Assembly (NCBI GenBank): GCA_030156395.1
Contig: JASGMP010000003.1
Location: forward strand, 32,711 to 64,710
Origin: Fidelibacterota bacterium
GTDB lineage: Bacteria > Fidelibacterota > Fidelibacteria > Fidelibacterales > Fidelibacteraceae
Length of the DNA: 32,000 bases
Reading direction: 5' to 3'
Below are positions 3,450-20,691 of the stretch, piece by piece. Under the pieces are notes generated by a model. It was not told the DNA's origin and did no database searches. It saw only the letters and a program-made list of their open reading frames with translations. Made by a program: the position numbers and the translations under genes. Position 1 is the first letter of the stretch. Each line of letters begins with the position of its first letter.

Positions 3450-3491
3450 GACTAATCCCACTATTTTTCAAGTAAAATACCTTTTATTTTA

Positions 3492-5291: not shown

Positions 5292-6944
5292 TTAATTCAT
5301 ATCAATTTGCTCAGGATTCATAAATTTCTCTGCATACCAACGGTATACTTTGGCTTCCTTGAAAAAGGCAAAGAGATCTGGATCGATATGATAATCTTTC
5401 ACCATGAACTCCATAATTTTCATAGCTTCGGAAAGAGTTTTTCCCTTTTTGTAGGGTCTGTCCGGTGCTGTCAGGGCTTCAAAAATATCAGCCATGGCCA
5501 TAATACGTGCCGGCAATTCCAAATTTTCAGCTTTCAGCCCTTTGGGATATCCCGAACCATCCATCCGTTCATGATGCTTGGCTGCATAAGATGGGACATT
5601 TTTCAATTTTTTGGGGAAAGGTAGCTGTGAGAGCATCTTATCGGTCACAACGGCGTGATTCTGAATGATTTGTCGTTCAGCCTCCGTCAGTGTGCCTTTG
5701 GAAATTTGCAGATTGAGAATTTCGTCTTCCGTAAGAACAGGGGTGCGTTTCCCGTCAATCAAGACATGGGTTCGTGCAATGTTGCAAATCCGGTCCTTAT
5801 ATTCGGGTTTAAGAAATTCACCGCCTGTATTCATCCGCTGAATAAACGTGTAATCCTCACTAATTTTCCGGATTTCTTCTTCCAGCCTTTTCATCAGATT
5901 ATCCCGTTCAGCCTGGGCAATGGAATCTTCAGGAGATCCTGCCAAGGCTTTCCACATCTCAATTTCGCGATCTTTTTTCAGCAATTCAAAACGAAGGAAA
6001 ACCGTATGGATCCGGTCATAAATCGTTTCCAGTTTTGTTGCTTTATCCACCACATATTCAGGTGTGGTAATTTTGCCGATGTCGTGAAGAAGTCCGGCAA
6101 AACGGATTTCCTCAATTTCATCTTCACTGTAGTGGACATCCTTAAAAAACCCCTCCGGGCTTTCAGAAATCTGCTGTGCGAGATATACCGCCAGTTCCGC
6201 CACCCTCTCGATATGCCCGCTTGTATATTTGGATTTTTCATCAATCGCCGAAGCTATAACGCGGATAATGGAATTCAATAACTCTTCAAGGCTTTGAATC
6301 AGTCGCTTTTCTGTAATCGCCACAGCTGCCTGACTGCCCAGGGCTTCTGTCAAAACCTGGGATTCAGGGCTAAAGGCAATGGTATTCCCCGATTCATCCT
6401 TGGCATTAATCAATTGGAGCACACCAATGACTTCATTCACGTGATTCAGCATCGGCAGTGCCAGCATAGACTGGGTCCGGTAACCGGTTTTTTGATCAAA
6501 CTGCCGGGTTCCCGTGAAATTAAAATCCTTTACCTCATAGACATCTTCAAAATTTAGTGTTTTTTTCTTCAAAGCAACATAAGCCGCAACCATTTCCAGA
6601 TAAGGGGTTCCATCCTCGTTATACAATTTCACCGGATACCAGTCGATAGGATTCCCTGACATTCCCCCCATCCGGATATTCATGGAATCTGTATGGACAA
6701 TACTGAAGTGTAGTTTTTTCTCATCCTCTGACATCATATACAGCGTAGCGGCATCCGCTCCTGTGATTTTCTTCGCATAGGTGACAATATTTTCCAGAAG
6801 GATATCCTGGTCTTTTTCGGTACTGAGAGAAGTCCCCACGGAGACAAAAACATGAACCCTGTCCTCAAGTGTTCTGATAAGTTCAATCAGTTCTTCTTTG
6901 GATTTAGAGGAAAGGGCTTCGGAAGAGATCACAGGTATTTTCAT
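5292..6944 (-). CDS. GAF-domain HD-GYP phosphodiesterase (c-di-GMP hydrolase family)
   Basis: An N-terminal GAF-like sensor region is followed by HD-GYP motifs LLHDIGKITTP ... KHHERMDGSGYPKGL. The track start at 7004 would overlap the upstream gene by 59 nt. The ATG at 6944 (MKIPVISS...) abuts that gene's stop and is preferred. Confidence 0.85.
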   Translation of the reverse strand: MKIPVISSEALSSKSKEELIELIRTLEDRVHVFVSVGTSLSTEKDQDILLENIVTYAKKITGADAATLYMMSEDEKKLHFSIVHTDSMNIRMGGMSGNPIDWYPVKLYNEDGTPYLEMVAAYVALKKKTLNFEDVYEVKDFNFTGTRQFDQKTGYRTQSMLALPMLNHVNEVIGVLQLINAKDESGNTIAFSPESQVLTEALGSQAAVAITEKRLIQSLEELLNSIIRVIASAIDEKSKYTSGHIERVAELAVYLAQQISESPEGFFKDVHYSEDEIEEIRFAGLLHDIGKITTPEYVVDKATKLETIYDRIHTVFLRFELLKKDREIEMWKALAGSPEDSIAQAERDNLMKRLEEEIRKISEDYTFIQRMNTGGEFLKPEYKDRICNIARTHVLIDGKRTPVLTEDEILNLQISKGTLTEAERQIIQNHAVVTDKMLSQLPFPKKLKNVPSYAAKHHERMDGSGYPKGLKAENLELPARIMAMADIFEALTAPDRPYKKGKTLSEAMKIMEFMVKDYHIDPDLFAFFKEAKVYRWYAEKFMNPEQIDMN

Positions 6945-6945
6945 G

Positions 6946-7701
6946 TTAAAAGATATCAAAATACATGAGTTTAATTTCACGGTTAAAGGATTCCACATTT
7001 TCACCCCAGATGAGATTGTTCAGATCCACTTCCAGGTAGAGATTTTCGGTAATTCCCACCCGAAGTCCCGTATTCAGAAAACCATATCCACCGGAAATTT
7101 TGAATTTTTTTAAATCTGAAAATTTTTCATAGTTGAGGGCGGCATCATATTCAACCATAAGGGAGAACTGGGGGTTCAGCTCAATAGCTGCGCCGGCAAA
7201 GAAAGAAGGCATATAGGTGCTGTCCGGTTGTTCAAGGGAATAATTTACCCCGCCGTGGAGGCTTGTATTGCCGATAAAATGCCAGTTTTTACTGAGGACT
7301 GAATAAAAACCGGGGGATGGAATTTCATAATTTCCATCTGTATAGGTTCCATAGCCTTGGGAAGAAAATCCCACTGATACTCCTGGTTTTTTCATCCCTT
7401 CATCGATCAATCGGTATTTGACACTCACACCAGGCTGGGGATTCCAGGTGATGGTTTCATGACCGATTATGTGAGATCCGCCATAGGATACCCCCATGGA
7501 AAAACGGTCTGTCAACCCCACAGTTGCCCCGATAAGAACCCCACCATTGGTGGTAAAACGCAAGTCTGTCAGGTAAGATCCCCGTGCCAACGTGGCAACC
7601 GTCGGGGTATTGATGAGCTGAACCGGTGCTGGGACAAACTGGGCCGCCAGTGTACCTGCCAAAAGCAGGAACAGGAGGGTTATTTTTACACAATACTTCA
7701 T
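6946..7701 (-). CDS. Exported beta-barrel-type outer membrane protein, unknown function
   Basis: 251-aa ORF. It has a signal peptide (MKYCVKITLLFLLLAGTLAAQ) and a Gly/aromatic-rich alternating strand pattern. The C-terminal ...IKLMYFDIF ends in Phe, resembling an OMP beta-signal. AAGGGGA RBS upstream. Confidence 0.6.
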   Translation of the reverse strand: MKYCVKITLLFLLLAGTLAAQFVPAPVQLINTPTVATLARGSYLTDLRFTTNGGVLIGATVGLTDRFSMGVSYGGSHIIGHETITWNPQPGVSVKYRLIDEGMKKPGVSVGFSSQGYGTYTDGNYEIPSPGFYSVLSKNWHFIGNTSLHGGVNYSLEQPDSTYMPSFFAGAAIELNPQFSLMVEYDAALNYEKFSDLKKFKISGGYGFLNTGLRVGITENLYLEVDLNNLIWGENVESFNREIKLMYFDIF

Positions 7702-10553: not shown

Positions 10554-10590
10554 TGTGAAAAAATGCCGGACAGGACACATCCCGTCCGGC
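10554..10590 (-). terminator. Rho-independent terminator closing the rotor-stator operon
   Basis: GC-rich hairpin GCCGGAC-A-GG / acacat / CC-C-GTCCGGC at 10565-10590. On the minus strand it is followed immediately by ATTTTTTTC. It lies about 30 nt downstream of the FliG-like stop at 10622. The plus-strand side has no T-tract, so it acts on the minus strand only. Confidence 0.75.
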
Positions 10591-10621
10591 AATAAATCTC
10601 AATGTATCAGACCGTTTGCTT

Positions 10622-11557
10622 TTATTCCACCATATCCGTATCGAGAAAATCCTCAATATCAAATTTTCCCTCGGCGGCCAGCTGTTTAACGGCTTGAATC
10701 AGTTTGCGCCGTGCACTTTCCACTTTCCGCCGGGGTTGAGGGCCTTCTACATCCTTTATTTCATCTTCCAGCATAATCTGGGTTTTCTGTGGCAAATTTT
10801 CCCGGATATAGGTGACAAATTCTTCGTTCATTCCTTTCAGTGCCAAAGCCAGGTCATTTAGTTCTACACTTTTCAATGCCTCCCGGACCACATCCACAGG
10901 GAGTTTGTCAAAGCTGTCGAAGGGAATGTAATACTTCGCCAGATCCCGGGCCAGTTCCGGATCTTCATGTTGCACATGATTTACAAACTGTTCTTCAAAA
11001 TCCGGTTCCAGTTTACTGAGAATGTCAGCAATCTGTTTGGAGCCCCCTTTATTAAAATGGGCTTTATGGGGAACCAGCCGGGCTTTTTCACGAATATCAT
11101 TCTCAATGTTGATAATCCCTTCATAAGGGATTTTATCTAAGTCATTCATCTGCATCAGAACCCGGGCCCGCTCATCCTCTTCCATATTTTTAATCACATC
11201 CACCTGAATTTCAATACTTAGCTGGCTCAGGACAAGGGCTTTTACCAGCTCACTTTCCGGTTCCAGAAGGTATTTGATTTGATCCGATGACATGGGCTTT
11301 AAAAAATCAAAAAGCACTTTCTGATCTCCATCGCTGACAGCCCGGATTTTTTCAGACATAAGCTGAAAATAATACTCTTCCAAAACCTTTCTTTTCAGGT
11401 CAAACGGCACCTTGATCAGCGTTTCGGCATGGCGGCGCAATTTGTTCAGTTGTGCCTGGGAAAGGTGCCGGAACAGGGAGACGGATAAATTATCTCCCAG
11501 CATTTTATAAATGATAGCGGCCCTGTCCAGATTGGAAAGTTTTTGAGGATCACTCAT
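10622..11557 (-). CDS. fliG: FliG-like rotor/switch protein (N, M and C domains recognisable)
   Basis: 311 aa from the ATG at 11557, with an AAGGAGA RBS and an 8-nt overlap with the upstream stop. The track's longer start at 11656 lies inside the upstream gene. FliG hallmarks seen: N-domain LDRAAIIYKMLGDNLSVSLFRHLSQAQLNKL; M-domain LLEPESELVKALVLSQL (the EHPQ position reads EPES); a GG linker (NKGGSKQIADIL); C-domain EDPELARDL...LALALKGMNEE...NLPQKTQIMLEDEIKDVEGP...AAEGKFDI. Confidence 0.7.
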   Translation of the reverse strand: MSDPQKLSNLDRAAIIYKMLGDNLSVSLFRHLSQAQLNKLRRHAETLIKVPFDLKRKVLEEYYFQLMSEKIRAVSDGDQKVLFDFLKPMSSDQIKYLLEPESELVKALVLSQLSIEIQVDVIKNMEEDERARVLMQMNDLDKIPYEGIINIENDIREKARLVPHKAHFNKGGSKQIADILSKLEPDFEEQFVNHVQHEDPELARDLAKYYIPFDSFDKLPVDVVREALKSVELNDLALALKGMNEEFVTYIRENLPQKTQIMLEDEIKDVEGPQPRRKVESARRKLIQAVKQLAAEGKFDIEDFLDTDMVE

Positions 11558-13106
11558 TTTTCCGTTCTCCTTTATCTTCCGCCTGGTCTGCGGGCGTTTC
11601 ATCTTCTTCCATCCAATCCCGGATAATCTTGCTGGCAGCATCGGGATTGGCGACACTCATGTTGACAATATTTTTTCGGATCCCTTCCAGTTCCGCCTGC
11701 TTTTCAGCCATATCGGACCCCTGATCCGGTTCCCGTTCAAGTTTACTCTCTTTCTTGTTTTCGTGCAGTTCTTTCAGAATCTTTTCCCGGATAGCCTCCT
11801 CGTTGCCGGCTGCCGGCTGCCGGGTCGGTGATTCTTCTTCCTGACGCGCAATTTTTCCACGGTTCAAGATCAAAACAATCAGCACAACCACAGCCGCAAT
11901 CAGCACCGCCAAAAGACCCCAGAACCACCAGGGGATTTGAGCCTTTTGCATACTCATCAATTCTTTTTGCGTTTCAGAAAGAAGAGAGATTTTTTCGGCA
12001 ATGGCTTCTTCCAGCTCTTCTTTTTCCCGAAGCATGCTATCCGATGCCGCCCGGGTGCTTTCACGGTCTTCAACGGCCATCTGCTGAGTTGCCAGCTGAA
12101 GTTTCAATGCGGCGATTTCATCTCGGAGTTCCTGCAAGCGGGTGGTATCACGCCCCAGCATTTCAAGCCGGAGTTTCTGCTCCGTAATCATCTTTTGAGT
12201 TTCCAGATCATCAGCCAAGGACTGCCGGGTATTGAGTTTATCAATGATTTTAAGCAGCATATTTTCTGTCGGTGTGGGTTCACTGCTCCGGGGTGCTTGT
12301 ATCTGCTGTTGTTGTGAGAGACGTTCAATTTGATCCTGAATCTGGCGAATCAGTTCCTGGGTTTCATCGGTTCGTTCCCGTTCTTCACGGGAAGGTTGAT
12401 ACTCTACAGCCCCAGGTACAACACCTGTTTTCACGCCGGCTATCAATTGATCTTCACTGAAGGTCGTTGTCATAATACTCAGCATATCTCCCCGGGAGCG
12501 ATCAAAATGGGAAGCAACCATGGCCACCTGGCGAATAGATTCCACCAGATCGGGATCAATGCCTTCTTTTAGAATGATGCTGATGTCCAGTTTCCGGACT
12601 TTTGGAATCAGGGGAACAGATCGTGCCACAGAACGGCTTTTGAGTCTTTCCGGTTCTATATCCCCCACCCCGGGCAGAACGGCTGTCTGTTCTTCACGAA
12701 TCCGAGATGTATCCGAAGGCAATTCTTCTGTTAGAATATCCATTCCCCGATCACCTATCCGTGTGGGGATACCCGGAAGAATTTCATTGTATTCCTCTTC
12801 GTAGGTCCTCCCACTTTTCTGAGCTTTTTCAGTTTCAGAAGCCGCTTGTGTTGGTCGGCGTCCCGGGGTTGCCGGTTCATATACTTCCTCGACCCGCTGA
12901 TCGGGAACAAAATCCAAATCGGCTTTCACATCAACAATAAAATGATTGTTCCCGAGAATGCGTTCTATCGCCTGGGAAATTTTATTCTGGAGTGCCTGTT
13001 CGAGTTCGAGTTTCTGGGACAGATAATTCGGGGATTGACCACTCAGCATCACTGCTGTTAACAGAATTATTGTCAGAGTTAAAAACATACGATTCCGACA
13101 ATTCAT
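11550..13106 (-). CDS. FliF-like ring protein: TM1, RBM3/collar-like periplasmic domain, long coiled-coil insert, TM2, FliG-binding-like C-terminus
   Basis: 518-aa ORF with an AAGGAGAG RBS. By-eye matches to remembered Salmonella FliF segments: aa 31-78 LELEQALQNKISQAIERILGNNHFIVDVKADLDFVPDQRVEEVYEP (start of RBM3); aa 166-216 KVRKLDISIILKEGIDPDLVESIRQVAMVASHFDRSRGDMLSIMTTTF (end of RBM3, RGD..v....F); aa 476-500 IRKNIVNMSVANPDAASKIIRDWMEED (C-terminal FliG-binding helix region). TM helices lie at about aa 8-22 and 391-415. A Gln/Glu/Leu-rich heptad region spans about aa 240-389. Confidence 0.6.
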   Translation of the reverse strand: MNCRNRMFLTLTIILLTAVMLSGQSPNYLSQKLELEQALQNKISQAIERILGNNHFIVDVKADLDFVPDQRVEEVYEPATPGRRPTQAASETEKAQKSGRTYEEEYNEILPGIPTRIGDRGMDILTEELPSDTSRIREEQTAVLPGVGDIEPERLKSRSVARSVPLIPKVRKLDISIILKEGIDPDLVESIRQVAMVASHFDRSRGDMLSIMTTTFSEDQLIAGVKTGVVPGAVEYQPSREERERTDETQELIRQIQDQIERLSQQQQIQAPRSSEPTPTENMLLKIIDKLNTRQSLADDLETQKMITEQKLRLEMLGRDTTRLQELRDEIAALKLQLATQQMAVEDRESTRAASDSMLREKEELEEAIAEKISLLSETQKELMSMQKAQIPWWFWGLLAVLIAAVVVLIVLILNRGKIARQEEESPTRQPAAGNEEAIREKILKELHENKKESKLEREPDQGSDMAEKQAELEGIRKNIVNMSVANPDAASKIIRDWMEEDETPADQAEDKGERKNE

Positions 13107-13121: not shown

Positions 13122-13781
13122 TTAAGATATTGCCAGGAATGTGATTTCTACCCGGCGGTTCCGGCTTTTGTTTTCCGGACTTGTATTGGGTTTTTTAGGC
13201 CGGGTATGGGCAAAACCGATGGCTCTGAACCTTTGCGGATCAATGCCCTGTGAAATATAATAATTGACGACCTGAGAGGCCCGGGCCGCCGACAATTCCC
13301 AGTTTGACGGATACTTATCCGAATGGATGGGATCACTGTCTGTATGCCCCTCCACCGCAATCTGATAAATGGAATTTTTAATCTTTGGAATAAATTTATC
13401 CAGGATGGGATAGACCTGGGGATTCAGTTCTGCACTGCCCCGAGTAAAGAGAATATCGGCCACAATAGAAATAGTGACCCCTCTGTAAGAATGGGTAACT
13501 TCTACATATTCATTCAGATTCTCTTTGTTGACAATCTCCTTTACATCCTTGTCAATCTGAGCCAGAGAAACCCGCCCGGTTCTTTCAGAAGGTTTGACTC
13601 CCAGCTCCTTTCCCATAGCCTCACTGAACTGTTCAATCTTTACAGGATCAATGGTAGACATGGAAAAAAGCAGGACAAAAAAGGTCATGAGCAGTGTCAT
13701 GATATCCGAATAGGTGACAAGCCACTCTTCCGTATCTGTTTCTTCCGGAGGAAGAGGTGATTTTTTCGTTGTTTCTTCCAT
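13122..13781 (-). CDS. motB: MotB stator subunit (conserved TM Asp, OmpA-like PG-binding domain)
   Basis: 219-aa ORF with a 1-nt TGATG overlap to motA. The TM EWLVTYSDIMTLLMTFFVLLF carries Asp26. The C-terminal domain reads VEGHTDSDP...NWELSAARASQV...NRRVEITF. Confidence 0.85.
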   Translation of the reverse strand: MEETTKKSPLPPEETDTEEWLVTYSDIMTLLMTFFVLLFSMSTIDPVKIEQFSEAMGKELGVKPSERTGRVSLAQIDKDVKEIVNKENLNEYVEVTHSYRGVTISIVADILFTRGSAELNPQVYPILDKFIPKIKNSIYQIAVEGHTDSDPIHSDKYPSNWELSAARASQVVNYYISQGIDPQRFRAIGFAHTRPKKPNTSPENKSRNRRVEITFLAIS

Positions 13782-14575
13782 CAGCTTTTACGTTCTTCTT
13801 CACGGATCCAGTCCCGTGGCGGGAGAAAGGAATTCAATTTTTCCCGGACAATAAGGGGGTGTTTCCGGTGATAGAGAAGACAGATTCCTTCGATAAGCAT
13901 CAATTGCAACATAGATGCTTTCTGAATGCGGGAATCGATTTTAGCGGCAGCCGGATTGAAAAAGAGATTTGCCAGAATGGCTCCATAAAAGGTTGTTACA
14001 ATGGCAGCCCCCATACCTTTTCCAAGCTGCTCGGCCATATCGCCTGAGGCGTCGCTCACACTCATCCCATAGAGCATCACAACCAATCCGATAAGGGTTC
14101 CGATCATTCCAAAGGCAGGAGAGAACTTTCCCATGGTTTTTACCACATTCACTTCCCCTTTTTCACGCTGTTCCCGGTTTACAATTCTCGATGTCAGGAT
14201 TTCCCGGATATCAGCATCACTGTAGCCGTCTATCACAAGCTGGATGCCATCTTTCAAAAAGGGGTGTTTCACCTCTTCAATATGTTTTTCCAGTTCTGCG
14301 GGCCCCCGCCGGGCAAAAGCTGCCAGTTCCGTAATCTGGCGGACCAGCATTTGCATATCCCGCTGTTCTTTTCTAAAGACAATGCCAATAACCTTAAAAA
14401 CGCGGCCTACTTCATGAAGTGGAAAGGCAATCAGAGTAGCGGCCAGGGATCCTCCCAAAACTATGGCAAGTGAGGGCAAGGACCAGAACATCCGGTAATC
14501 CTGAGTAAGCAAGGTAATCCCATAAAAGATCAATCCCAAGCCCATAAAAATCCCTAAGATGCTTGCAAAATCCAT
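13781..14575 (-). CDS. motA: MotA/PomA stator channel subunit
   Basis: 264-aa ORF with an AAGGAG RBS. Cytoplasmic loop LAAFARRGPAELEKHIEEVKHPFLKDGIQLVIDG; TM3 SPAFGMIGTLIGL; TM4 TTFYGAILANLFFNPAAAK. This is the canonical MotA layout. Confidence 0.85.
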   Translation of the reverse strand: MDFASILGIFMGLGLIFYGITLLTQDYRMFWSLPSLAIVLGGSLAATLIAFPLHEVGRVFKVIGIVFRKEQRDMQMLVRQITELAAFARRGPAELEKHIEEVKHPFLKDGIQLVIDGYSDADIREILTSRIVNREQREKGEVNVVKTMGKFSPAFGMIGTLIGLVVMLYGMSVSDASGDMAEQLGKGMGAAIVTTFYGAILANLFFNPAAAKIDSRIQKASMLQLMLIEGICLLYHRKHPLIVREKLNSFLPPRDWIREEERKS

Positions 14576-14584
14576 TCAGTCTCC

Positions 14585-15925
14585 TTAGTTATTGTTCATG
14601 AAGGATCCAGTCCGTGAGCGGGTTTCCTGGAGGACCTTCAGAATATTGCGGACATCATCATATTCCGGGTCGATTTGCAGTGCCAGGTTCCAATTGATAG
14701 TGGCCCTTTGGATATCTCCCATTTTGTAATAAATGGATCCGCGTCGTGCATAAGCCAGAGAAAGGTTGGGATTAAGCTGTATCGCAATATCCACTTCATT
14801 CAGTGCCTGCATATAATCGCCGGCATAAAAATATCGAAGGCTCCGGCTCAAATGTTTCAGAGCCAGATTGATATTTTGCTGCATTACATGTTGCTGAAGC
14901 TTCACCGATTGCAGAGAATCTTCCAAAACGGATTTCTGTTGCCGAAGCTGAGCGATGGTATTATTCAGATCATCTACCGTCTGGACGGAAATCCTCAGGG
15001 AATCCCGGAGCCCCATAATGGTAGCATCCGCTTCTCTGAGCAGGGAATCCAGTTCCGCGCCGTATTCAGTTTCTGATGTTTGTATTCCTGAAGCTCCATC
15101 CATAACGGCTGGTATCCCGCTCTGACGTGGGGTTCGTTCCGGCATCACCCGGGGAATCGCCAGTGTTAGTCCCAGGGAAATGGCCGGTAGATCCTTTTCA
15201 TTGCCCTTCCCAAAATTCGGCAACCACTGCATCTGGGAAATCCCCAGATTCAAACGGTATTCTGCTGTCAGGGGAATTTGCATCCCCAGATTCAGTCCTC
15301 CTCCATCAAATTCACCGATGAGGTTAATGCCACCACGATCTGCCATCATGCCCGTCTTGAACAAAAAACCGGCAAAAACGCCGATGCTTGTCGTCGTATC
15401 ATTACTGGAAAAACCCCGGGAAAATCCCCCGCTTCCCGCACCCATATAGGTATTAAATCCCGTTTCTCCTATCATTTTTTCAGTAGAAATTACAGCAAAA
15501 ACAGAAAAATCCTGATTATCCACCTGCATTTTGCCGTCGATATCCCTCAAGACAAAATCCCAAAGACCCACAGCCATTGAAATATCCCCGTACGCCATGA
15601 CCCGTTTCGTCAGGTGCAACCCATATTCCACATCGGTAGTACTCATGGAAGTAACATCATAGGGTTGAATCACAGAAAGTCCCACATTCAGTGAATTGAT
15701 AATATCCATATCAAAAAAGACACCTTTGGACATACGAAAATCCTCAATCCCATACAGATCTGAAGCGAAGCCGGTGCGGAAAAGGAAAGGAGACTGCTCC
15801 ACAGAACTTGACGGCACCCGCATCATAGATCCTGGTTTCATAAAGGAGACATGTGAGGATGCGTAGGCTGTATGGCCAGATAGTGCTACGCTCAACAGGA
15901 AAAACAGCCATTTTAATTGTTTCAT
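14585..15925 (-). CDS. Exported beta-rich (barrel-like) domain fused to coiled coil and C-terminal TPR repeats
   Basis: Start chosen at the ATG at 15925, which gives the signal peptide MKQLKWLFFLLSVALSGHTAYASS. The track start at 16069 overlaps the upstream gene by 128 nt. About 300 aa are Gly/aromatic-rich strands, followed by a heptad region (LNNTIAQLRQQKSVLEDSLQSVKLQQ) and TPRs (YFYAGDYMQALNEVDIAIQLNPNLSLAYARRGSIYYKMGDIQRATINWNLALQIDPEY). Confidence 0.6.
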   Translation of the reverse strand: MKQLKWLFFLLSVALSGHTAYASSHVSFMKPGSMMRVPSSSVEQSPFLFRTGFASDLYGIEDFRMSKGVFFDMDIINSLNVGLSVIQPYDVTSMSTTDVEYGLHLTKRVMAYGDISMAVGLWDFVLRDIDGKMQVDNQDFSVFAVISTEKMIGETGFNTYMGAGSGGFSRGFSSNDTTTSIGVFAGFLFKTGMMADRGGINLIGEFDGGGLNLGMQIPLTAEYRLNLGISQMQWLPNFGKGNEKDLPAISLGLTLAIPRVMPERTPRQSGIPAVMDGASGIQTSETEYGAELDSLLREADATIMGLRDSLRISVQTVDDLNNTIAQLRQQKSVLEDSLQSVKLQQHVMQQNINLALKHLSRSLRYFYAGDYMQALNEVDIAIQLNPNLSLAYARRGSIYYKMGDIQRATINWNLALQIDPEYDDVRNILKVLQETRSRTGSFMNNN

Positions 15926-15941
15926 TTTTTTATCACTTTTA

Positions 15942-16598
15942 TCACTGACTTTTTTGTAATTCTTTCCGGGCAAGGGCCGAATATCTGGACTCCGGATATG
16001 CCTGAAGATATACCTGAAAATAGTGATTCGATTCGGTTTGTTTCCCGAGATTCCTGAAACTGACGGCAAGCAGGATCAGAGCATTTTCCCGAAAAACCTC
16101 GCTCTCTTCGGAAATCAATTCCTGAAGAAGGACCACTGCCTCATTGTAGTTGTCTTGCCGAAAAGCACATTCCCCCAGCCAATAGAGGGCACTAAGGTTC
16201 AGTTCTTTTTCCTGGGTATTGTCTCTTACCTGCCGCAACAATTCGGCCGCCTTTCCATAGTCTCCGGCCGTAAAATGACGAAGAGCCCGGGCATAAAGCT
16301 GCTGTTCAATAAGGGGAATTCCCGGATCATCCGGCATTTTTTCTGTCATTTGTTGATTCTCTTTCAGGGTTTCTTTTAACTGCTGAACTTCTTGCTCCAG
16401 GTGTTTTATACGCTTCAGCAATGTTTCAAGAGAAACAGATTCACCTGTATCGGATTCGGAAATCTGCTGATAAGCCATAACAGAATCCCGCATGCTGGCC
16501 CGTTCCGGAAAAAGCATATCCATATCCAGCATCGGATCCTGCGAAAACGCAAGAGTAGCAAAACATGTCAAAGAACAGACAAAACATAATAATTTCAT
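15942..16598 (-). CDS. Periplasmic CpoB/YbgF-like protein (signal peptide, coiled coil, TPR)
   Basis: 218-aa ORF. Signal peptide MKLLCFVCSLTCFATLAFSQ, a short coiled coil (LETLLKRIKHLEQEVQQLKETLKE), and YbgF-type TPRs (YARALRHFTAGDYGKAAELLRQV...ALYWLGECAFRQDNYNEAVVLLQELI...YPESRYSALARKEL). Confidence 0.6.
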   Translation of the reverse strand: MKLLCFVCSLTCFATLAFSQDPMLDMDMLFPERASMRDSVMAYQQISESDTGESVSLETLLKRIKHLEQEVQQLKETLKENQQMTEKMPDDPGIPLIEQQLYARALRHFTAGDYGKAAELLRQVRDNTQEKELNLSALYWLGECAFRQDNYNEAVVLLQELISEESEVFRENALILLAVSFRNLGKQTESNHYFQVYLQAYPESRYSALARKELQKSQ

Positions 16599-16599
16599 G

Positions 16600-17541
16600 T
16601 CAGAACTGTCCTGAATTAATCATATCCCGAACCTTGCTGACCAATTCGCTTTCCGGATACTCTTCCAGCAGTGTTTTAAAAGCCTCAAGACCTTCCACTT
16701 GCCGGCCCATTTTCAGGTAGGAAAGTCCGATTTTGAACTGGGCATGATCGGCTTTATTCCCGTTCGGCAGTGTTTTGACTTTTTCAAATTCCTCAATCGC
16801 CCGGCTATAGAGCCCTTGGGCATAATACCCTTCTCCTATCCAGTATTGACAATTGTCGGAATAATCATGATCCGGAGCAATTCGAATCAATTCCCTAAAT
16901 TCCTCGATGGCTTTATTCCGTTGCCTGTCAAACAACAAGTCCAGGGCATCCTGATACCGCTGCAGATATTCATCCTGAGTCAGATCCATCACAGGACTGA
17001 TCGCCGCATCCAGAGCACATGTATCGGTTGCAACTTTTTCTGAAACCGTATCTGTTTTTACCGGTTCATCCCGGGTGATAACTTGTAATAAATTTTGTTC
17101 GGATTCTTTGACAGCCGCCGTTTCCAAGGCTTTTCGAATGGAATCCTGCGAGGCATTCAGGTACGATTGAAGCAATTCATTTTGCCGTTTCAATTCCAGG
17201 TTTTTTTCATCCAGCTCCGAGAGCATACCTTCCAGCTCTTCAGCGGACAGTTTCTCATTTATCAACCTGGCACGAAGAGAATCTCGATGGTTTTCCAGCT
17301 CAATAATATTGGATTTCAGTTCACTGATTTCACTCTGGAGGATAATAATCTGATTTTTCAGATCTAGGATCTCAATGGTTTTCTGCTGAACCTCTTGTTC
17401 GCGTCTCCGCAAATCGTCTTCAGTCCGCTGTAATTTTTCAGGGGGAACATCCGGTCGGGATCCGCCACAGGAAACAAAAAAAAGGACGGGGACAAGAAGA
17501 ACGATCATCGCATGCGGTAACGCAAAGACTCGCCTAATCAT
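16600..17541 (-). CDS. Lipoprotein with long coiled coil and CpoB/YbgF-like TPR C-terminus
   Basis: The ATG at 17541 gives a lipoprotein signal MIRRVFALPHAMIVLLVPVLFFVSCGG. The track start at 17586 is a TTG inside the upstream gene. The heptad region includes LKNQIIILQSEISELKSNIIELENHRDSL. The C-terminal TPRs read YQDALDLLFDRQRNKAIEEFRELIRIAPDHDYSDNCQYWIGEGYYAQGLYSRAIEEFEKV...YPESELVSKVRDMI. Confidence 0.6.
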   Translation of the reverse strand: MIRRVFALPHAMIVLLVPVLFFVSCGGSRPDVPPEKLQRTEDDLRRREQEVQQKTIEILDLKNQIIILQSEISELKSNIIELENHRDSLRARLINEKLSAEELEGMLSELDEKNLELKRQNELLQSYLNASQDSIRKALETAAVKESEQNLLQVITRDEPVKTDTVSEKVATDTCALDAAISPVMDLTQDEYLQRYQDALDLLFDRQRNKAIEEFRELIRIAPDHDYSDNCQYWIGEGYYAQGLYSRAIEEFEKVKTLPNGNKADHAQFKIGLSYLKMGRQVEGLEAFKTLLEEYPESELVSKVRDMINSGQF

Positions 17542-18460
17542 ATTCCTCCCAATTAATGCTGTATGAATAACCAATAAATGTACCAAAAGAAGTCGGGATA
17601 TTCAATGTGAACCTTCCTGTGGCGCCGGGCAGCAGGGCAGCATCGGAACTAACCCCGCTGGCATAATTCATAAAAGATCCTTTGACGAAAGTTGTCAGGG
17701 TTTTTGTCTCGCCACTCCAGTTCATACGAAAAACAAAGGTAACCTTCACAAAATCAGCACGACGGGCACCAATATTCTTTACCTCTCCTGAAAAAATACG
17801 ATTTCCCGAGAGATCGGTACTTTCACGGATATTTCCCACCAAAATACAATTGGCATTGACCGCTGAGGGTGAAGGTCTGTCCGGCAACTCAAGTGGGGAA
17901 ATGGTCTCCGCCGTTGGTGCAGATATCAGCCTCTCTGCAGCCTGATTCTGTGTAACGGCTGGACTTTCAATCGCCGATGAGGGAATATTATCTACAATAC
18001 GCACCACTTCATCACGAGGAATGACTACGTATCCGATAAGTGTTTGAATTTTTAAAATATCACTATCCTGATACATAATCTTGCCAAACACACTGGTCCC
18101 GTTTTGAAGGATTATTTCTTTGTTGTAAATTTTCAGAGGGTTTTCCCAAAGGCTGGATTGAGCTTTCAGCTCTTTCAGCTCGGATTCCAGATATTTAATC
18201 CGCGCTCCCTGTTTTTTTAATTCATAGGAGAGCTCATTCAACACAAAGGGATAATCCCGTTCCTGAATCACACTATCCCTGTTTCCGGATCCTGTGATCT
18301 CATTCATCTCCTGTTGGATTAAATCATTCTGCAAGGCTATTTCAGCGGAATCACCTGCAAACACTTCGTCCTCTTCGGGACCTTCGCCCCCCCTGAACCA
18401 GGCACAACCTGACAACAACACCAAAACGGTTCCCAAACGAAGCCATCGATTGAGGGACAT
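17534..18460 (-). CDS. Lipoprotein, unknown function (coiled coil + two small beta domains)
   Basis: 308-aa ORF and first gene of the operon. Canonical lipobox LVLLSGC, a short coiled coil (IKYLESELKELKAQ), and a beta-rich C-terminal domain (FSGEVKNIGARRADFVKVTFVFRM...). I cannot name a family with confidence. Confidence 0.55.
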   Translation of the reverse strand: MSLNRWLRLGTVLVLLSGCAWFRGGEGPEEDEVFAGDSAEIALQNDLIQQEMNEITGSGNRDSVIQERDYPFVLNELSYELKKQGARIKYLESELKELKAQSSLWENPLKIYNKEIILQNGTSVFGKIMYQDSDILKIQTLIGYVVIPRDEVVRIVDNIPSSAIESPAVTQNQAAERLISAPTAETISPLELPDRPSPSAVNANCILVGNIRESTDLSGNRIFSGEVKNIGARRADFVKVTFVFRMNWSGETKTLTTFVKGSFMNYASGVSSDAALLPGATGRFTLNIPTSFGTFIGYSYSINWEEYD

Positions 18461-18532: not shown

Positions 18533-18561
18533 AATATAAATTCAAAACACATGAAAGTCAA
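18533..18561 (-). promoter_or_regulatory. Sigma70-type promoter candidate for the eight-gene operon
   Basis: The minus strand reads TTGACT (18561-18556), a 17-nt spacer, then TATATT (18538-18533). It lies about 70 nt upstream of the ATG at 18460, in an AT-rich 193-nt intergenic region. Confidence 0.5.
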
Positions 18562-18653: not shown

Positions 18654-19778
18654 TCAATATCGAAGTAATCCGCACACGGGAGAGAATTCGCCCATCTCCG
18701 AGGAGATGAATTCAATTTTCGCCCCGGTATCTAAAGCCATGTGAATCAGTTCGTCGGTGATATCCAGAGTCCGCTCCATAGGATGGCCGCAGTTGGGGCA
18801 TACATCTTCTTCCTCCGTTGTCATGTACAGGCACCATTTACATACTCTGCCTTTAGTTTGAAAACCCTCCTGGATCATCAGCATATCTACCCGCCCCTGC
18901 TGGAGGGCTTCTTCCGTCTGATGTATGCCGGCAACCCCCTTATGGTTTTTGTGAAATTCATTGGCAAACATGTTCAGAATGTCTTTCTCAAAATCTATGC
19001 GGCATCCCGGAATTTCTTTATCCACAAGCTGAAAAACTTTATCCATGGAAAGATTGGGGTCTACCGGAATTTCACGGGCGATTTTATCCTTCAAGCCCGA
19101 TTTGAGATAGTTCGCAAAATCAGACATACTCTCCCGGAGTCCACCTAAAAGGATCCAGTCAAAATGGTATTTTTGATCCAGGGTATCCAGTTGTGCTGCC
19201 ACATTTTTAAAATGTTTAGCCACAACTTCTTCCCGGTGACGTTCATTTTTCCGCTCTTCCATGCCACCAAAACCACCTTCATTGGCATCTTCAGGAAGCA
19301 AATTCACCACATTGAAAAGTTCCTCCTTATTCCCAAGATGATTCATAAGAATCTTAGCCTTTCCCTGATCCACCAGAACAATGGCATAATTCCGTTCATG
19401 GCTGATGCCTTCCAGAAAAGGGCGCAGATAAGGACGATCCTGTATCACCATCATATTTTCCACGGGAAATCCCAAATGAATTACCCTCCATACATACGCC
19501 CGGTTGGATGAGATCATCATTAACGACCGGCGTTCTTCTCCCAGCTGATTTTTGAGAAATTTGATAATGCCCTCCACATCTTTCTCAACCGACATTTTCT
19601 CCTGATCCGAAAGGTTTTTATAAAATGTCTTGTCCTTTTTTTGTTTAAACATGTTATTTACCACAATATCTGCATTCCGGAGCTTTTGGGATGTTGATAC
19701 GTCAAGATAAACCGTTGTGACGGGATTTCCCTCGGTTTTCAGGGTTTGCAGAGACTGAATTACCGTTACTGAATTCAT
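18654..19778 (-). CDS. Bacterial eRF1/Pelota-like (baeRF-type) protein with inserted CxxC...CxxC zinc ribbon
   Basis: 374-aa ORF with an AAGGAGGG RBS. The N-terminal ...PVTTVYLDVS is typical of bacterial eRF1-like families. A Gly-rich loop (EGGFGGMEERKNERH) sits where eRF1 carries GGQ. Domain-3-like GVAGIHQTEEALQQGRVDMLMI and the C-terminal ...VCGLLRY resemble the eRF1/Pelota GGIxAxLRY end. The zinc ribbon is CKWCLYMTTEEEDVCPNCGHPM. Confidence 0.55.
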   Translation of the reverse strand: MNSVTVIQSLQTLKTEGNPVTTVYLDVSTSQKLRNADIVVNNMFKQKKDKTFYKNLSDQEKMSVEKDVEGIIKFLKNQLGEERRSLMMISSNRAYVWRVIHLGFPVENMMVIQDRPYLRPFLEGISHERNYAIVLVDQGKAKILMNHLGNKEELFNVVNLLPEDANEGGFGGMEERKNERHREEVVAKHFKNVAAQLDTLDQKYHFDWILLGGLRESMSDFANYLKSGLKDKIAREIPVDPNLSMDKVFQLVDKEIPGCRIDFEKDILNMFANEFHKNHKGVAGIHQTEEALQQGRVDMLMIQEGFQTKGRVCKWCLYMTTEEEDVCPNCGHPMERTLDITDELIHMALDTGAKIEFISSEMGEFSPVCGLLRY

Positions 19779-19873: not shown

Positions 19874-19954
19874 TAGTTTTACTCGGCATACTTCAGAATG
19901 TTGCTTTCTATTTTCCGTCTTTTTTCCTTACCTTTTCAGGGTAAAGGGGGTCTT

Positions 19955-20377
19955 ATGAAATCACTGACAAAATACCTTACATTTAACATTCCCACACGGA
20001 TGGATTTTGTAAATATAACCGGACAGGTGGAAGATCTCGTTCGTGAATCGGGCATACAGGAGGGATTGTGCCTGGTTAATGCTATGCACATAACCGCTTC
20101 AGTTTTCATTAATGATGATGAACCTGGGCTACATCAGGATTATAAGCGCTGGCTGGAAAAACTGGCCCCCTTTGATCCGGGTACAGATCTCTATGCCCAC
20201 AACCGGACCGGAGAAGATAACGGCGATGCCCACCATAAGCGACAAATTATGGGACGTGAGGTCGTTGTGGGCATCACAAAGGGCCGTCTTGATTTCGGCC
20301 CGTGGGAACAGATTTTTTACGGCGAATTCGACGGACGCAGACCCAAACGGGTTCTGGTGAAAATGATAGGAGAATAA
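19955..20377 (+). CDS. yjbQ: YjbQ/UPF0047 family protein (secondary thiamine-phosphate synthase-type)
   Basis: The ATG at 19955 is preceded by AAGGGGG. The track start at 19898 adds 19 non-conserved residues. The family pattern is present throughout ([22 protein letters not shown]...[21 protein letters not shown]...[38 protein letters not shown]). Confidence 0.8.
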
Positions 20378-20385
20378 AGTTTCCT

Positions 20386-20691
20386 ATGGATGAGAGTCTC
20401 ATACAATCCCTCCGGGCACATATTGACAGGATTGACAAATCGCTGGTTGATCTTTTATCCCAAAGAATGGAGCTGGCATATCAGATCGGAAAGGAGAAAG
20501 GGAAAACAGGGCAACCGGTAACGGTCTTGGCCCGTGAAGAAGAAATTTACCACTCTCTGGAAGGTCTGAATTCCCGCTTTTTATCATCTGAAGACCTGAA
20601 AGCCATATTTGCACAGATCATTGCCCTGGGCCGTAAAGCCGGGGAAGAGGGGGCCAGAGAAGTAAATCAAAAGATAGGACAAACATCATGA
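20386..20691 (+). CDS. Chorismate mutase, AroQ class (monofunctional)
   Basis: 101 aa from the ATG at 20386. Pattern LRAHIDRIDKSLVDLLSQRMELAYQIGKEK...VLAREEEI. ATGA overlap with the DAHP synthase start. The track's upstream extension overlaps yjbQ. Confidence 0.8.
   Translation: MDESLIQSLRAHIDRIDKSLVDLLSQRMELAYQIGKEKGKTGQPVTVLAREEEIYHSLEGLNSRFLSSEDLKAIFAQIIALGRKAGEEGAREVNQKIGQTS

What the first reader, a model, noticed from the sequence alone, without database searches (positions are those of the whole stretch)
11550..13106. FliF-like protein reduced to an RBM3/collar-like domain, with a ~150-170 aa coiled-coil inserted before TM2
Seen in sequence: right after TM1 (aa 8-22) the protein reads LELEQALQNKISQAIERILGNNHFIVDVKADLDFVPDQRVEEVYEP. 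A Pro/Gly/charged segment with LPGIP and LPGVG follows, then KVRKLDISIILKEGIDPDLVESIRQVAMVASHFDRSRGDMLSIMTTTF. After that comes a Q/E/L-rich heptad region (about aa 240-389; nt about 11937-12458 including linker), TM2 (IPWWFWGLLAVLIAAVVVLIVLIL) and a charged tail containing NPDAASKIIRDWMEED.

Established knowledge (from memory of Salmonella FliF, not a computed alignment): these three blocks resemble the beginning of RBM3 (...VTAQLDFANKEQTEEHYSP), the end of RBM3 (...RLSVAVLV...GFSDKRGDTLNVVNSPF) and the FliG-binding C-terminal helix (...DPRVVALVIRQWM...). In FliF, RBM1 and RBM2 precede RBM3 and surround the type III export gate, and TM2 follows RBM3 almost directly.

Inference: the protein could form an S-ring/collar-type ring but has no domains to house an export gate. 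The coiled-coil could hold that ring well away from the inner membrane, towards the peptidoglycan and outer-membrane partners encoded upstream.
Basis: partly seen in the sequence, partly recalled or inferred. Interest (0 to 1): 0.8.

Follow-up and report, generated by a model that had tools for sequence, protein, structure and literature searches.

The report
Flagellar-type rotor ring without a flagellum
This gene encodes a cut-down relative of the flagellar base-ring protein FliF, and it sits in a conserved eight-gene operon found across the abundant ocean phylum Marinimicrobia (SAR406), which looks like a flagellar-style rotary motor with no flagellum attached.

Summary
ORF 11550-13106 (-) encodes 518 aa with every quoted motif in place.

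Sequence profiles and a predicted structure match only the RBM3/beta-collar part of FliF:
- Pfam PF08345 scores above its cut-off.
- hhalign maps aa 32-219 onto E. coli FliF 235-432 (E 1e-6).
- The top 18 Foldseek PDB hits are all FliF S-rings.

RBM1 and RBM2 are absent. A helical segment of 121-206 aa separates RBM3 from TM2 in all 81 family members; Salmonella has about 17 aa there. The C-terminal helix with an invariant Trp is colinear with the FliG-binding end of FliF.

The gene is the seventh of a fixed operon: lipoprotein, three coiled-coil/TPR proteins, MotA, MotB, FliF-like, FliG-like. The operon occurs in at least 85 Marinimicrobia genomes and is under strong purifying selection. The stator catalytic residues and torque residues are invariant. 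No other flagellar or chemotaxis gene lies within 10 kb of any copy.

Best reading: this is the rotor ring of a MotAB-driven machine that has no export apparatus. What the machine drives is unknown. I found no published description.

The parts
18533..18561 (-). Sigma-70-like promoter match (TTGACT-17-TATATT) upstream of the first operon gene
   Evidence: This is a consensus match only. The promoter type used by this phylum is unknown.
17534..18460 (-). g1: conserved lipoprotein, 308 aa. It has a LSGC lipobox, a coiled-coil helix at aa 67-106, a small beta-barrel at 114-157 and a beta-sandwich at 205-305.
   Evidence: Sequence. No Pfam or PDB sequence relative. AF2 pLDDT 71. Best Foldseek hit is the trimeric lipoprotein SadB, 4c47, E 5e-4, which is weak. 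It is about 50% identical across the phylum and found in 65 of 86 loci; contig ends explain its absence elsewhere. More than 2000 homologues.
16600..17541 (-). g2: probable lipoprotein (FVSC) with a long coiled coil and a YbgF/CpoB-like TPR domain
   Evidence: NCBIfam tol_pal_ybgF E 9.5e-19 and CpoB E 5.8e-12, both below their cut-offs.
15942..16598 (-). g3: secreted protein with a coiled coil and a YbgF/CpoB-like TPR domain
   Evidence: tol_pal_ybgF E 5.1e-15.
14585..15928 (-). g4: secreted protein with a beta-rich N-terminal domain (no relatives found), a coiled coil and a C-terminal TPR domain
   Evidence: Found in 75 of 86 loci, always directly upstream of MotA.
13781..14575 (-). MotA: flagellar-type stator A subunit (PomA/MotP-like)
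   Evidence: Pfam MotA_ExbB. NCBIfam MotP/MotA/PomA E 1e-44 to 1e-54, below equivalog cut-offs. PDB C. sporogenes MotA E 1e-43. The equivalents of E. coli R90, E98, P173 and P222 are invariant in 71 of 71 family members.
13122..13781 (-). MotB: stator B subunit with plug and OmpA-like peptidoglycan-binding domain
   Evidence: Pfam MotB_plug E 1.8e-19 and OmpA E 3.9e-20. The equivalent of E. coli D32 is invariant in 72 of 72.
11550..13106 (-). FliF-like protein, 518 aa (the finding)
13038..13088 (-). N-terminal hydrophobic segment (aa 7-23): probably a cleavable signal peptide, alternatively TM1
   Evidence: Basic n-region, uncharged stretch of 11-22 aa (median 17), G/A/S at position -1 in 71 of 73, and a conserved Gln at +1 (invariant in the 14-member alignment). 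Not confirmed with a dedicated predictor.
12867..13031 (-). RBM3a-like part (aa 26-80): helix 26-51, strands 56-66 and 71-76
   Evidence: AF2. Aligns to E. coli FliF from residue 235 and to Vibrio FliF from 268.
12636..12866 (-). Beta-collar-equivalent insertion (aa 81-157), with G112-I113-P114 invariant or nearly so in the ILPGIP motif
   Evidence: Disordered in the monomer model. Variable in length across the family. [quoted passage not shown]
12456..12635 (-). RBM3b-like part (aa 158-217): strands 158-163 and 168-179, helix 185-198, and the invariant FDRxRGD..MT..F motif
   Evidence: Aligns to E. coli FliF ...GFSEKRGDSLNVVNSPF, which ends at residue 429.
11946..12389 (-). Helical stalk (aa 240-387): H240-269, a Pro-rich break, then one 109-residue helix 279-387
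   Evidence: AF2 pLDDT 85-92. The family linker is 121-206 aa, median 155, in 81 of 81 members. dN/dS is 0.05. Heptad signal is weak.
11859..11936 (-). TM2 (aa 391-416), with positive residues on the C-terminal side
   Evidence: Hydropathy and AF2 helix 394-423.
11601..11714 (-). Cytoplasmic helices (aa 465-502) carrying the putative FliG-binding motif IRKNIVNMSVANPDAASKIIRDWMEED; W498 is invariant
   Evidence: Colinear match to Vibrio FliF 552-580, 5.5 bits.
10622..11557 (-). FliG-like protein, 311 aa. Its true start is the ATG at 11557, which overlaps the FliF-like stop by 8 nt.
   Evidence: Pfam FliG_N, FliG_M and FliG_C all hit. PDB T. maritima FliG E 3.6e-18. The 8-nt overlap is also seen in L001 and L005. 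Torque-helix charges are partly kept; of the EHPQR motif, H, Q and R are lost.
10564..10591 (-). Intrinsic-terminator-like hairpin (12-bp stem, 8 GC pairs, T-run) 30 nt after the FliG-like stop

Best explanation
The protein is a FliF derivative that keeps only three parts of FliF: the S-ring/beta-collar module (RBM3), one C-terminal transmembrane helix, and the cytoplasmic FliG-binding tail. It has lost RBM1/RBM2 and gained a helical stalk of about 150 residues between the ring domain and the membrane.

Proposed mechanism:
(i) The RBM3 domains oligomerise into a large ring in the periplasm, as isolated Salmonella RBM3 does.
(ii) After signal-peptide cleavage, each subunit is held only by its C-terminal TM helix. 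The stalk (about 16 nm if the 109-residue helix is straight) therefore places the ring near the peptidoglycan or outer membrane.
(iii) The C-terminal helix docks into the N-domain of the co-translated FliG-like protein, building a FliG ring under the membrane with no FliM/FliN switch.
(iv) Peptidoglycan-anchored MotA5B2-type stators use ion flow to push on the FliG C-domain and turn the whole ring.
(v) The rotating collar engages the four envelope proteins encoded upstream (two lipoproteins, CpoB-like TPR proteins) instead of a rod.

There is no export gate, rod, hook or filament, so the output is a periplasmic or outer-membrane process that remains unidentified.

Shown: domain identity, absence of RBM1/2, the helical insertion, operon conservation, conserved stator and torque residues, purifying selection.
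Inferred: ring formation, FliG docking, rotation, stalk geometry, partners.
For: RBM3 identity:
- Pfam PF08345 above its cut-off.
- phmmer and profile hits only to FliF.
- hhalign aligns aa 32-219 to E. coli FliF 235-432, probability 90.7%, E 1.2e-6.
- The AF2 fold and Foldseek top 18 hits are all FliF S-rings.

No export-gate housing: RBM2 forms the inner ring that holds the export complex (PMC11739650), and RBM2 is absent here.

Stalk: a helical linker of 121-206 aa in 81 of 81 members, compared with 17 aa in Salmonella (RBM3 ends at 438, TM2 starts at 455; PMC11739650). dN/dS is 0.05.

Coupling to FliG: the two genes overlap by 8 nt; the FliG-like protein has N, M and C domains; W498 is invariant and the tail is colinear with the Vibrio FliF C-terminus.

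Working stator: MotA R89, E96, P153 and P208 and MotB D26 are invariant. MotB has a plug and an OmpA domain, which are the hallmarks of flagellar-type stators (PMC12505986).

Module conservation: the order g1-g2/g3-g4-MotA-MotB-FliF-like-FliG-like is the same in every locus with enough flank, among 86 loci with differing neighbours. dN/dS is 0.02-0.13.

No other flagellar genes: 30 E. coli flagellar and chemotaxis proteins searched against 1.44 Mb of these loci hit only FliF (RBM3 region), FliG, MotA and MotB. The only isolate of the phylum is non-motile (PMC11652737).
Against: - No experiment or oligomer model was possible. Ring formation, stoichiometry, FliG docking and rotation are all inferred by homology.
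- The C-terminal match to FliF is not significant on its own.
- In most family members the equivalents of FliG D288/D289 fall in a 4-residue deletion, so the rotor-stator interface is not fully canonical.
- Heptad periodicity of the stalk is weak, so the helices could pack as a compact bundle rather than an extended stalk.
- If the N-terminal segment is an uncleaved TM1, the ring must sit on the membrane and the stalk geometry fails.
- Whole genomes could not be inspected. Flagellar genes elsewhere in these genomes are not excluded, and one paper scores Marinimicrobia MAGs as having 'flagellar assembly' genes (10.1101/2020.06.03.132969), although this cluster itself might explain that.
- I could not establish whether the non-motile isolate carries the cluster.
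Confidence: 0.6

Rival explanations
1. The module is a Tol-Pal-like, non-rotary envelope tether. The FliF-like protein would act like TolA: a membrane-anchored long helix with a distal globular domain that reaches outer-membrane or peptidoglycan partners. MotAB would energise conformational cycling rather than continuous rotation, and no closed ring would be needed.
For: Two operon proteins have a coiled coil plus a YbgF/CpoB-type TPR domain. MotB binds peptidoglycan. The layout of one TM helix, a long helix and a distal domain resembles TolA (established knowledge). The heptad signal is weak, as in TolA domain II.
Against: The distal domain is specifically an S-ring/RBM3 fold with a collar insertion, which is a ring-building module (PMC8786727, PMC11739650). 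Energy coupling goes through a complete three-domain FliG and a flagellar-type MotA with invariant torque residues. TolQR/ExbBD instead contact the TolA/TonB TM helix directly. MotA here is the flagellar type, not the TolQ/ExbB type: tolQ E 0.04 and exbB E 0.013, against MotP 7.5e-54.
Confidence: 0.15
2. The module is an accessory or alternative rotor of a genuine flagellum whose remaining genes lie elsewhere in the genome.
For: The genes are annotated as FliF/FliG/MotA/MotB by public pipelines. One study lists 'flagellar assembly' genes in Marinimicrobia MAGs. A second flagellar-type stator set lies 7 kb away.
Against: Without RBM1/RBM2 the ring cannot house the export gate (PMC11739650). No FlhA, FliI, FliP, rod, hook, FliM, FliN or Che homologue was found in 1.44 Mb around 86 copies. 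The operon partners are non-flagellar lipoproteins and TPR proteins. The H, Q and R positions of the FliM-binding EHPQR motif are not kept. The phylum's only isolate is non-motile.
Confidence: 0.07
3. The module is a decaying relic of a lost flagellum and has no current function.
For: Only four flagellar homologues remain. The FliF is truncated. FliG has lost switch motifs.
Against: ORFs are intact in all 81 complete copies. dN/dS is 0.02-0.13, including the novel stalk at 0.05. Catalytic residues are invariant. Synteny with four non-flagellar genes is fixed across a whole phylum at 23-100% identity. The genes are translationally coupled and end in a strong terminator.
Confidence: 0.03
4. The module is an anti-phage defence system of the Zorya type, in which a MotAB-like motor senses envelope perturbation.
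For: MotB matches ZorB models in PADLOC (E 5e-24). Zorya systems use MotAB homologues and long helical tails (PMC12505986 mentions Zorya as distant relatives).
Against: MotA, the FliF-like protein, the FliG-like protein and g1-g4 hit no PADLOC model, and there is no ZorA, ZorC or ZorD. The locus is a phylum-wide, syntenic core-genome operon next to housekeeping genes, not a variable island.
Confidence: 0.02

Closest known systems
FliF, the flagellar MS-ring protein (Salmonella/E. coli/Vibrio; PF08345 plus the RBM1-RBM2 region; TIGR00206)
   Same: It has the RBM3a / beta-collar insertion / RBM3b module, including the conserved ...RGD..N/S.V/M..F end motif. A TM helix follows, with a cytoplasmic tail ending in an I-R-x-W-M/L helix. 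The gene is immediately followed by, and overlaps, a fliG-type gene.
   Different: There is no RBM1, no RBM2 and no DQxGxxL hinge. The N-terminal segment is probably a cleaved signal peptide rather than TM1. A helical stalk of 121-206 aa replaces the 17-aa connection between RBM3 and TM2. It scores 36 bits against the 130-bit TIGR00206 cut-off. It is not linked to fliE or fliHIJ, or to any export or axial gene.
SpoIIIAG (sporulation channel ring of Firmicutes)
   Same: A single RBM-type domain with a beta insertion forms a large periplasm-like ring on its own, anchored by one TM helix, with no RBM1/2.
   Different: The similarity is only remote (Foldseek E 0.22, rank 38). SpoIIIAG has an N-terminal anchor, no FliG-binding tail, no MotAB partner, and belongs to a different phylum and operon.
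Flagellar rotor-stator core (FliG ring plus MotA5B2/PomAB)
   Same: The FliG-like protein has three domains with a Gly-Gly linker and basic and acidic torque-helix residues. MotA keeps the R90, E98, P173 and P222 equivalents. MotB keeps the D32 equivalent, the plug and the OmpA domain.
   Different: There is no FliM/FliN, and the H, Q and R of EHPQR are lost. Most members have a 4-residue deletion at the D288/D289 position. The motor would drive a periplasmic ring rather than a rod and filament.
Tol-Pal with CpoB (YbgF), and the GldLM/PorLM motor of the Bacteroidota type IX secretion and gliding system
   Same: Both are ion-driven MotAB-family motors in the inner membrane that transmit force across the periplasm to outer-membrane lipoprotein and TPR partners. 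CpoB-like coiled-coil/TPR proteins are encoded in the operon. Marinimicrobia belong to the same FCB superphylum and carry Por-type secretion tails.
   Different: Those systems use TolQ/ExbB- or GldL-type A subunits and a shaft protein (TolA, GldM) that sits inside the motor. Here a flagellar-type stator acts on a separate FliG/FliF-type rotor.
Periplasmic stator scaffolds of elaborated flagellar motors (Campylobacter PflA/PflB TPR proteins; Borrelia collar protein FlcA, TPR)
   Same: TPR or coiled-coil periplasmic proteins and lipoproteins are encoded with, or act on, MotB-type stators. This point rests on my own knowledge and was not tested here.
   Different: No sequence relationship was detected, and those scaffolds surround a complete flagellar basal body.

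Membership tests
FliF (flagellar MS-ring protein) | RBM3 with beta-collar insertion (S-ring domain; Pfam PF08345) | tested here: met
   PF08345 scores 32.2 bits against a cut-off of 23.8. hhalign maps aa 32-219 to E. coli FliF 235-432, E 1.2e-6. The Foldseek top 18 hits are FliF RBM3 rings, E about 1e-6.
FliF (flagellar MS-ring protein) | RBM1 and RBM2 domains (Salmonella residues 60-215) that form the inner M-ring and house the export gate | tested here: not met
   No further Pfam family reached E 0.1 in the N-terminal region. Only about 7 residues precede the first RBM3 helix. These domains are absent in all 14 aligned relatives and all 81 family ORFs.
FliF (flagellar MS-ring protein) | Two transmembrane helices flanking the periplasmic region | tested here: inconclusive
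   TM2 is clear. The N-terminal segment has signal-peptide features: uncharged stretch with median 17 aa, G/A/S at -1 in 71 of 73, conserved Gln at +1. No dedicated signal-peptide predictor was available.
FliF (flagellar MS-ring protein) | C-terminal cytoplasmic helix that binds the FliG N-domain | tested here: inconclusive
   There is a colinear match to Vibrio FliF 552-580 of only 5.5 bits. W498 is invariant. The downstream FliG-like protein has a FliG_N domain. Binding itself cannot be tested with these tools.
FliF (flagellar MS-ring protein) | Full-length equivalog score (TIGR00206 cut-off 129.75 bits) | tested here: not met
   35.9 bits, matching model positions 240-314 only.
FliF (flagellar MS-ring protein) | Genomic association with flagellar export and axial genes | tested here: not met
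   Zero hits for FlhA, FlhB, FliH, FliI, FliJ, FliP, FliQ, FliE, FlgB-L, FliM, FliN and Che proteins in 1.44 Mb around 86 copies. Whole genomes were not inspected.
SctJ/PrgK/YscJ (injectisome inner-ring lipoprotein) | N-terminal lipobox plus RBM1-RBM2 architecture | tested here: not met
   No lipobox is present (Cys3 precedes the hydrophobic region). There is no Pfam match to an RBM1-RBM2 region, and no SctJ/PrgK structure in the Foldseek top 50 or in the PDB profile search.
SpoIIIAG | RBM-type ring domain related to SpoIIIAG, in a spoIIIA operon | tested here: not met
   Foldseek 5wc3 E 0.22, rank 38. There is no sequence hit, and the operon content is unrelated.
Flagellar-type stator (the 'FIT' clade of PMC12505986), tested on the adjacent MotA/MotB | Expanded torque-generating cytoplasmic domain in A; plug plus OmpA-like domain in B; conserved R90, E98, P173, P222 and D32 equivalents | tested here: met
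   The NCBIfam equivalog cut-offs are not reached (183 bits against 394 for MotP), so this is a divergent member.
FliG, tested on the adjacent gene | N, M and C domains; torque-helix charges; EHPQR motif for FliM binding | tested here: inconclusive
   All three Pfam domains score above their cut-offs. K/R257, E263, E270 and K/R275-R276 are conserved, but the D288/D289 equivalents are deleted in 62 of 73 members. EHPQR is reduced to an invariant Glu, plus Pro in 50 of 73. TIGR00207 scores 94 bits against a cut-off of 227.
Zorya anti-phage system | ZorA plus ZorB with ZorC/D or ZorE | tested here: not met
   Only the generic ZorB/MotB match was found. There is no ZorA and no accessory hit.

The most novel reading that the evidence does not exclude
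Marinimicrobia (SAR406), one of the most abundant bacterial groups of the dark ocean, carry a previously undescribed class of envelope-spanning rotary machine. It would be a flagellar-type FliG/MotAB motor that turns an RBM3-only FliF ring raised on a helical stalk of about 16 nm. That ring would drive a non-flagellar output at the peptidoglycan or outer membrane through four dedicated lipoprotein/TPR proteins, for example surface translocation, secretion or envelope remodelling. This would be the first FliF/FliG rotor known to work outside a flagellum, and a natural 'minimal' rotor-stator system.
Probability: 0.45. Interest if true: 0.9.

Novelty: new variant of a known kind. Interest (0 to 1): 0.8.

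Why it matters
FliF and FliG are thought of as flagellum-only parts. A phylum-wide operon under selection that keeps just the S-ring/collar module, FliG and a flagellar-type stator, with no export apparatus, rod, hook, filament or switch, has four consequences.

(1) The flagellar torque-generating core can be re-used for another job. This bears on how modular the motor is and on scenarios for its origin or reduction.

(2) It offers a naturally minimal rotor-stator pair for structural and biophysical work: RBM3 ring, FliG and MotAB only.

(3) It points to an unknown envelope function in SAR406/Marinimicrobia, which are abundant and have only one cultured isolate.

(4) It warns that metagenomic trait inference counting fliF, fliG, motA and motB as 'flagellar assembly' or 'motility' will mis-score this phylum.

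Tried and rejected
- Re-searching the word-indexed protein database with the family alignment found no new members. The exhaustive HMM search was needed to see the family's breadth.
- Nine literature searches found no description of this cluster. The MotAB evolution paper does not mention it.
- Heptad test: periodicity at 3.5 residues was not significant, so I do not call the stalk a canonical coiled coil.
- Identity of g1: there is no Pfam or PDB sequence relative. Foldseek gives only a weak SadB-like lipoprotein resemblance and generic beta-sandwiches. The function is left open.
- The N-terminal domain of g4 has no relatives; only generic TPR hits were found.
- PADLOC rejects Zorya.
- Whole-genome absence of flagellar genes could not be tested, because only +/-10 kb around each copy is available.

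Full report
**Observation**

ORF 11550-13106 on the minus strand encodes a 518-aa protein. These are the N-terminal hydrophobic segment (aa 7-25), the block at 33-78, LPGIP (110-114), LPGVG (144-148), the block at 169-216 ending SIMTTTF, an E/Q/L-rich 173-aa segment (218-390), TM2 (391-414) and NPDAASKIIRDWMEED (487-502).

**Identity of the periplasmic domain**

Pfam finds PF08345 (the family that models the start of FliF RBM3) at aa 48-96, with 32.2 bits against a cut-off of 23.8. No other family reached E 0.1 in the N-terminal region. NCBIfam's full-length FliF equivalog matches only model positions 240-314, with 36 bits against a 130-bit cut-off.

phmmer against all PDB chains hits only FliF proteins. 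Vibrio FliF 268-455 aligns to query 34-220 (E 4e-5), including the ...RGD.L..... F end motif. A profile of 14 family members again hits only FliF. It adds a third colinear piece, Vibrio 552-580, aligned to the family's C-terminal helix at 5.5 bits. hhalign of that profile against E. coli FliF aligns family aa 32-219 to FliF 235-432 (probability 90.7%, E 1.2e-6).

Published domain limits for Salmonella FliF are RBM1 60-124, RBM2 125-215, RBM3a 228-270, beta-collar 271-381, RBM3b 382-438 and TM2 455-475 (PMC11739650). The match therefore covers RBM3 and nothing else.

An AlphaFold2 model built on the 14-sequence alignment has pLDDT 65 and pTM 0.25. Its elements in order are:
- helix 26-51
- strands 56-66 and 71-76
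- a disordered insertion, 77-157
- strands 158-163 and 168-179
- helix 185-198
- helix 240-269
- one uninterrupted helix 279-387 (pLDDT 85-92)
- the TM helix
- three cytoplasmic helices

Foldseek against the PDB returns 18 FliF RBM3/S-ring structures at E about 1e-6. A four-log gap follows. SpoIIIAG appears only at E 0.22, and no SctJ/PrgK is listed.

**What is missing and what is added**

Only about 7 residues separate the N-terminal hydrophobic segment from the first RBM3 helix, so RBM1, RBM2 and the DQxGxxL hinge are absent. This holds for all 14 aligned relatives (23-80% identity) and for 81 family ORFs recovered from genomes. In those 81 ORFs the distance from the end of RBM3 to TM2 is 121-206 aa (median 155). 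In Salmonella it is 17 aa. The helical insertion is thus a defining and conserved feature of the family, and its dN/dS is 0.05.

I could not show that it is a canonical coiled coil. The hydrophobic periodicity peaks at 3.4 residues, and 8.5% of shuffles reach the observed power at 3.5.

**The N-terminus**

Across 73 distinct members the segment has a basic n-region and an uncharged stretch of 11-22 residues (median 17). It has G/A/S at position -1 in 71 of 73, followed by a conserved Gln (invariant in the 14-member alignment).

This matters for geometry. An uncleaved anchor 7 residues from RBM3 would pin the ring to the membrane. Cleavage leaves each subunit held only by TM2, at the far end of a helix of up to about 16 nm.

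**Context**

The gene is the seventh of an eight-gene minus-strand operon with overlapping or nearly abutting genes. A promoter-like site lies at 18561-18533 and a strong terminator-like hairpin at 10591-10564. The genes are:
- g1 (17534-18460): a lipoprotein with a coiled coil, a small beta-barrel and a beta-sandwich.
- g2 and g3: a coiled coil plus a YbgF/CpoB-like TPR domain; g2 has a lipobox-like FVSC.
- g4: a signal peptide, a beta-rich domain, a coiled coil and a TPR domain.
- MotA (13781-14575). Its closest solved relative is C. sporogenes MotA, E 1e-43.
- MotB (13122-13781), with plug and OmpA domains.
- The FliF-like protein.
- A FliG-like protein (10622-11557) with FliG_N, FliG_M and FliG_C domains. 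Its start overlaps the FliF-like stop by 8 nt, as it does in related contigs.

**Distribution**

- The word-indexed search found 21 relatives, all from Marinimicrobia or unnamed metagenome sequences.
- The exhaustive HMM search found 410 cluster representatives at E<1e-3, 49 of them at E<1e-30.
- Named members are from Fidelibacterota or Neomarinimicrobiota.
- A scan of one genome per species returned 85 loci, nearly all labelled Marinimicrobia, Neomarinimicrobiota or Fidelibacterota. They include marine SAR406 single-cell genomes. The window is about 91% identical to 'Marinimicrobia bacterium 46_43'.

tblastn of the eight window proteins against the loci shows the same gene order and strand wherever the contig extends far enough: MotB in 82 of 86, FliG-like in 80, MotA in 77, g4 in 75 and g1 in 65. 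The outside neighbours differ between clades.

Pairwise dN/dS is 0.02-0.13 for the FliF-like, FliG-like, MotA, MotB and g1 genes.

**Functional residues**

| Protein | Residue (E. coli equivalent) | Conservation |
|---|---|---|
| MotA | R89 (R90), E96 (E98), P153 (P173), P208 (P222) | 71 of 71 |
| MotB | D26 (D32) | 72 of 72 |
| FliG-like | K/R257 (R281) | 73 of 73 |
| FliG-like | E263, E270 | 70 of 73 each |
| FliG-like | K/R275-R276, Gly-Gly linker | kept |
| FliG-like | D288/D289 equivalents | in a 4-residue deletion in 62 of 73 |
| FliG-like | FliM-binding EHPQR motif | reduced to an invariant Glu, plus Pro in 50 of 73 |

The loss of most of the EHPQR motif fits the absence of FliM and FliN. 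The remnants of a FliM-binding motif and the flagellar-type stator suggest descent from a complete flagellar motor. That is inference.

**Absence of the rest of the flagellum**

Thirty E. coli flagellar and chemotaxis proteins were searched by tblastn against 1.44 Mb (the window plus 86 loci). Only FliF (residues 238-438), FliG, MotA and MotB gave hits. FlhA, FlhB, FliH/I/J, FliP/Q, FliE, FlgB-L, FliM/N and CheA/W/Y gave none. The only cultured member of the phylum is described as non-motile (PMC11652737). Whole genomes could not be examined.

**Mechanism**

[quoted passage not shown] It also shows that RBM2 forms the inner ring that houses the export complex, that the collar holds the proximal rod, and that a flexible chain at its top (305-354) affects rod attachment (PMC11739650, PMC8786727). 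The family's nearly invariant G-I-P of ILPGIP aligns to E. coli FliF 302-305, at the base of that chain.

I therefore propose a ring of RBM3 domains with a collar, raised on helical stalks. It would be tied through TM2 and the C-terminal helix to a FliG-only ring and turned by peptidoglycan-anchored MotAB. The collar loops would hold one or more of g1-g4 in place of a rod. Domain identities, operon conservation and residue conservation are shown. Ring formation, docking, rotation, height above the membrane and partners are inferred.

**Rivals**

- A TolA-like non-rotary tether. The CpoB-like partners fit this, but the FliG-mediated coupling and the ring-building fold do not.
- An accessory rotor of a real flagellum. 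This is not excluded genome-wide, but no linked genes exist and there is no gate housing.
- A decaying relic. Purifying selection rejects it.
- Zorya-type defence. PADLOC finds only a generic ZorB/MotB match.

**Novelty**

The protein fails FliF membership on RBM1/2, on the equivalog score and on genomic association. It is not SctJ or SpoIIIAG. It is best filed as a new variant built from flagellar rotor parts. Nine literature searches found no description. Public annotations call it 'FliF/YscJ' or 'FliF C-terminal domain-containing protein'. At least one study lists 'flagellar assembly' genes in Marinimicrobia MAGs, which may be this cluster.

Noticed in passing
window 1239-4655 (-): There is a second flagellar-type stator set: MotA2 (2628-3461), which is 32% identical to the operon MotA with NCBIfam MotP/MotA/PomA E about 1e-50, followed by two MotB-like OmpA proteins (1940-2635 and 1239-1943). 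An unknown 387-aa ORF (3492-4655) precedes it. The arrangement is the same in L001. It could be an alternative stator for the same rotor, as in bacteria with dual stators.
   Followed up: partly
window 18654-19778 (-): A gene of bacterial eRF1-like release factor family 10 (baeRF_family10 plus eRF1 domain 3) lies directly upstream of the operon on the same strand. It is conserved there in L001 and L005 but not in L003, so it is probably not part of the module.
   Followed up: partly
window 17534-18460 (g1) and proteins P0192-P0293: g1 has more than 2000 homologues. Many marine SAR406 versions are about 100 aa longer and carry a CarboxypepD_reg (PF13620) beta-sandwich domain. Several sit on contigs of 1.2-2.0 Mb that look like near-complete genomes.
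   Followed up: no
L013, L017, L021, L025 and other marine-clade loci (C-terminus of the FliF-like ORF): In marine clades the cytoplasmic tail of the FliF-like protein ends in a Pro/Glu-rich stretch followed by a run of 6-10 lysines. The window's clade lacks this.
   Followed up: no
L028/L050 (MAG NP55), L046/L066 (UBA2125), L063/L071: Some metagenome-assembled genomes contain two separate copies of the cluster. These may be paralogous systems, strain mixtures or binning artefacts. L064 and L066, from two different MAGs, gave the same locus length and the same match statistics; I did not compare their sequences.
   Followed up: no
window 5292-7004 (-): A GAF plus HD-GYP-type (HD_5) protein, possibly a c-di-GMP phosphodiesterase, lies between the operon and the second stator set. 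It is conserved in L001 but absent from the L003 and L005 neighbourhoods.
   Followed up: no
window 19898-28322 (+): A complete shikimate/chorismate pathway block lies divergently next to the operon: chorismate mutase, DAHP synthase, prephenate dehydrogenase/dehydratase, EPSP synthase, shikimate dehydrogenase, chorismate synthase, shikimate kinase, DHQ synthase and DHQ dehydratase. This is ordinary housekeeping context and supports a core-genome location.
   Followed up: yes
L061 (labelled SAR86 cluster) and L003/L077 (labelled Lentisphaeria): Two loci carrying the full Marinimicrobia-type cluster come from MAGs labelled as other phyla. This probably reflects mis-binning or mis-labelling rather than horizontal transfer.
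   Followed up: no
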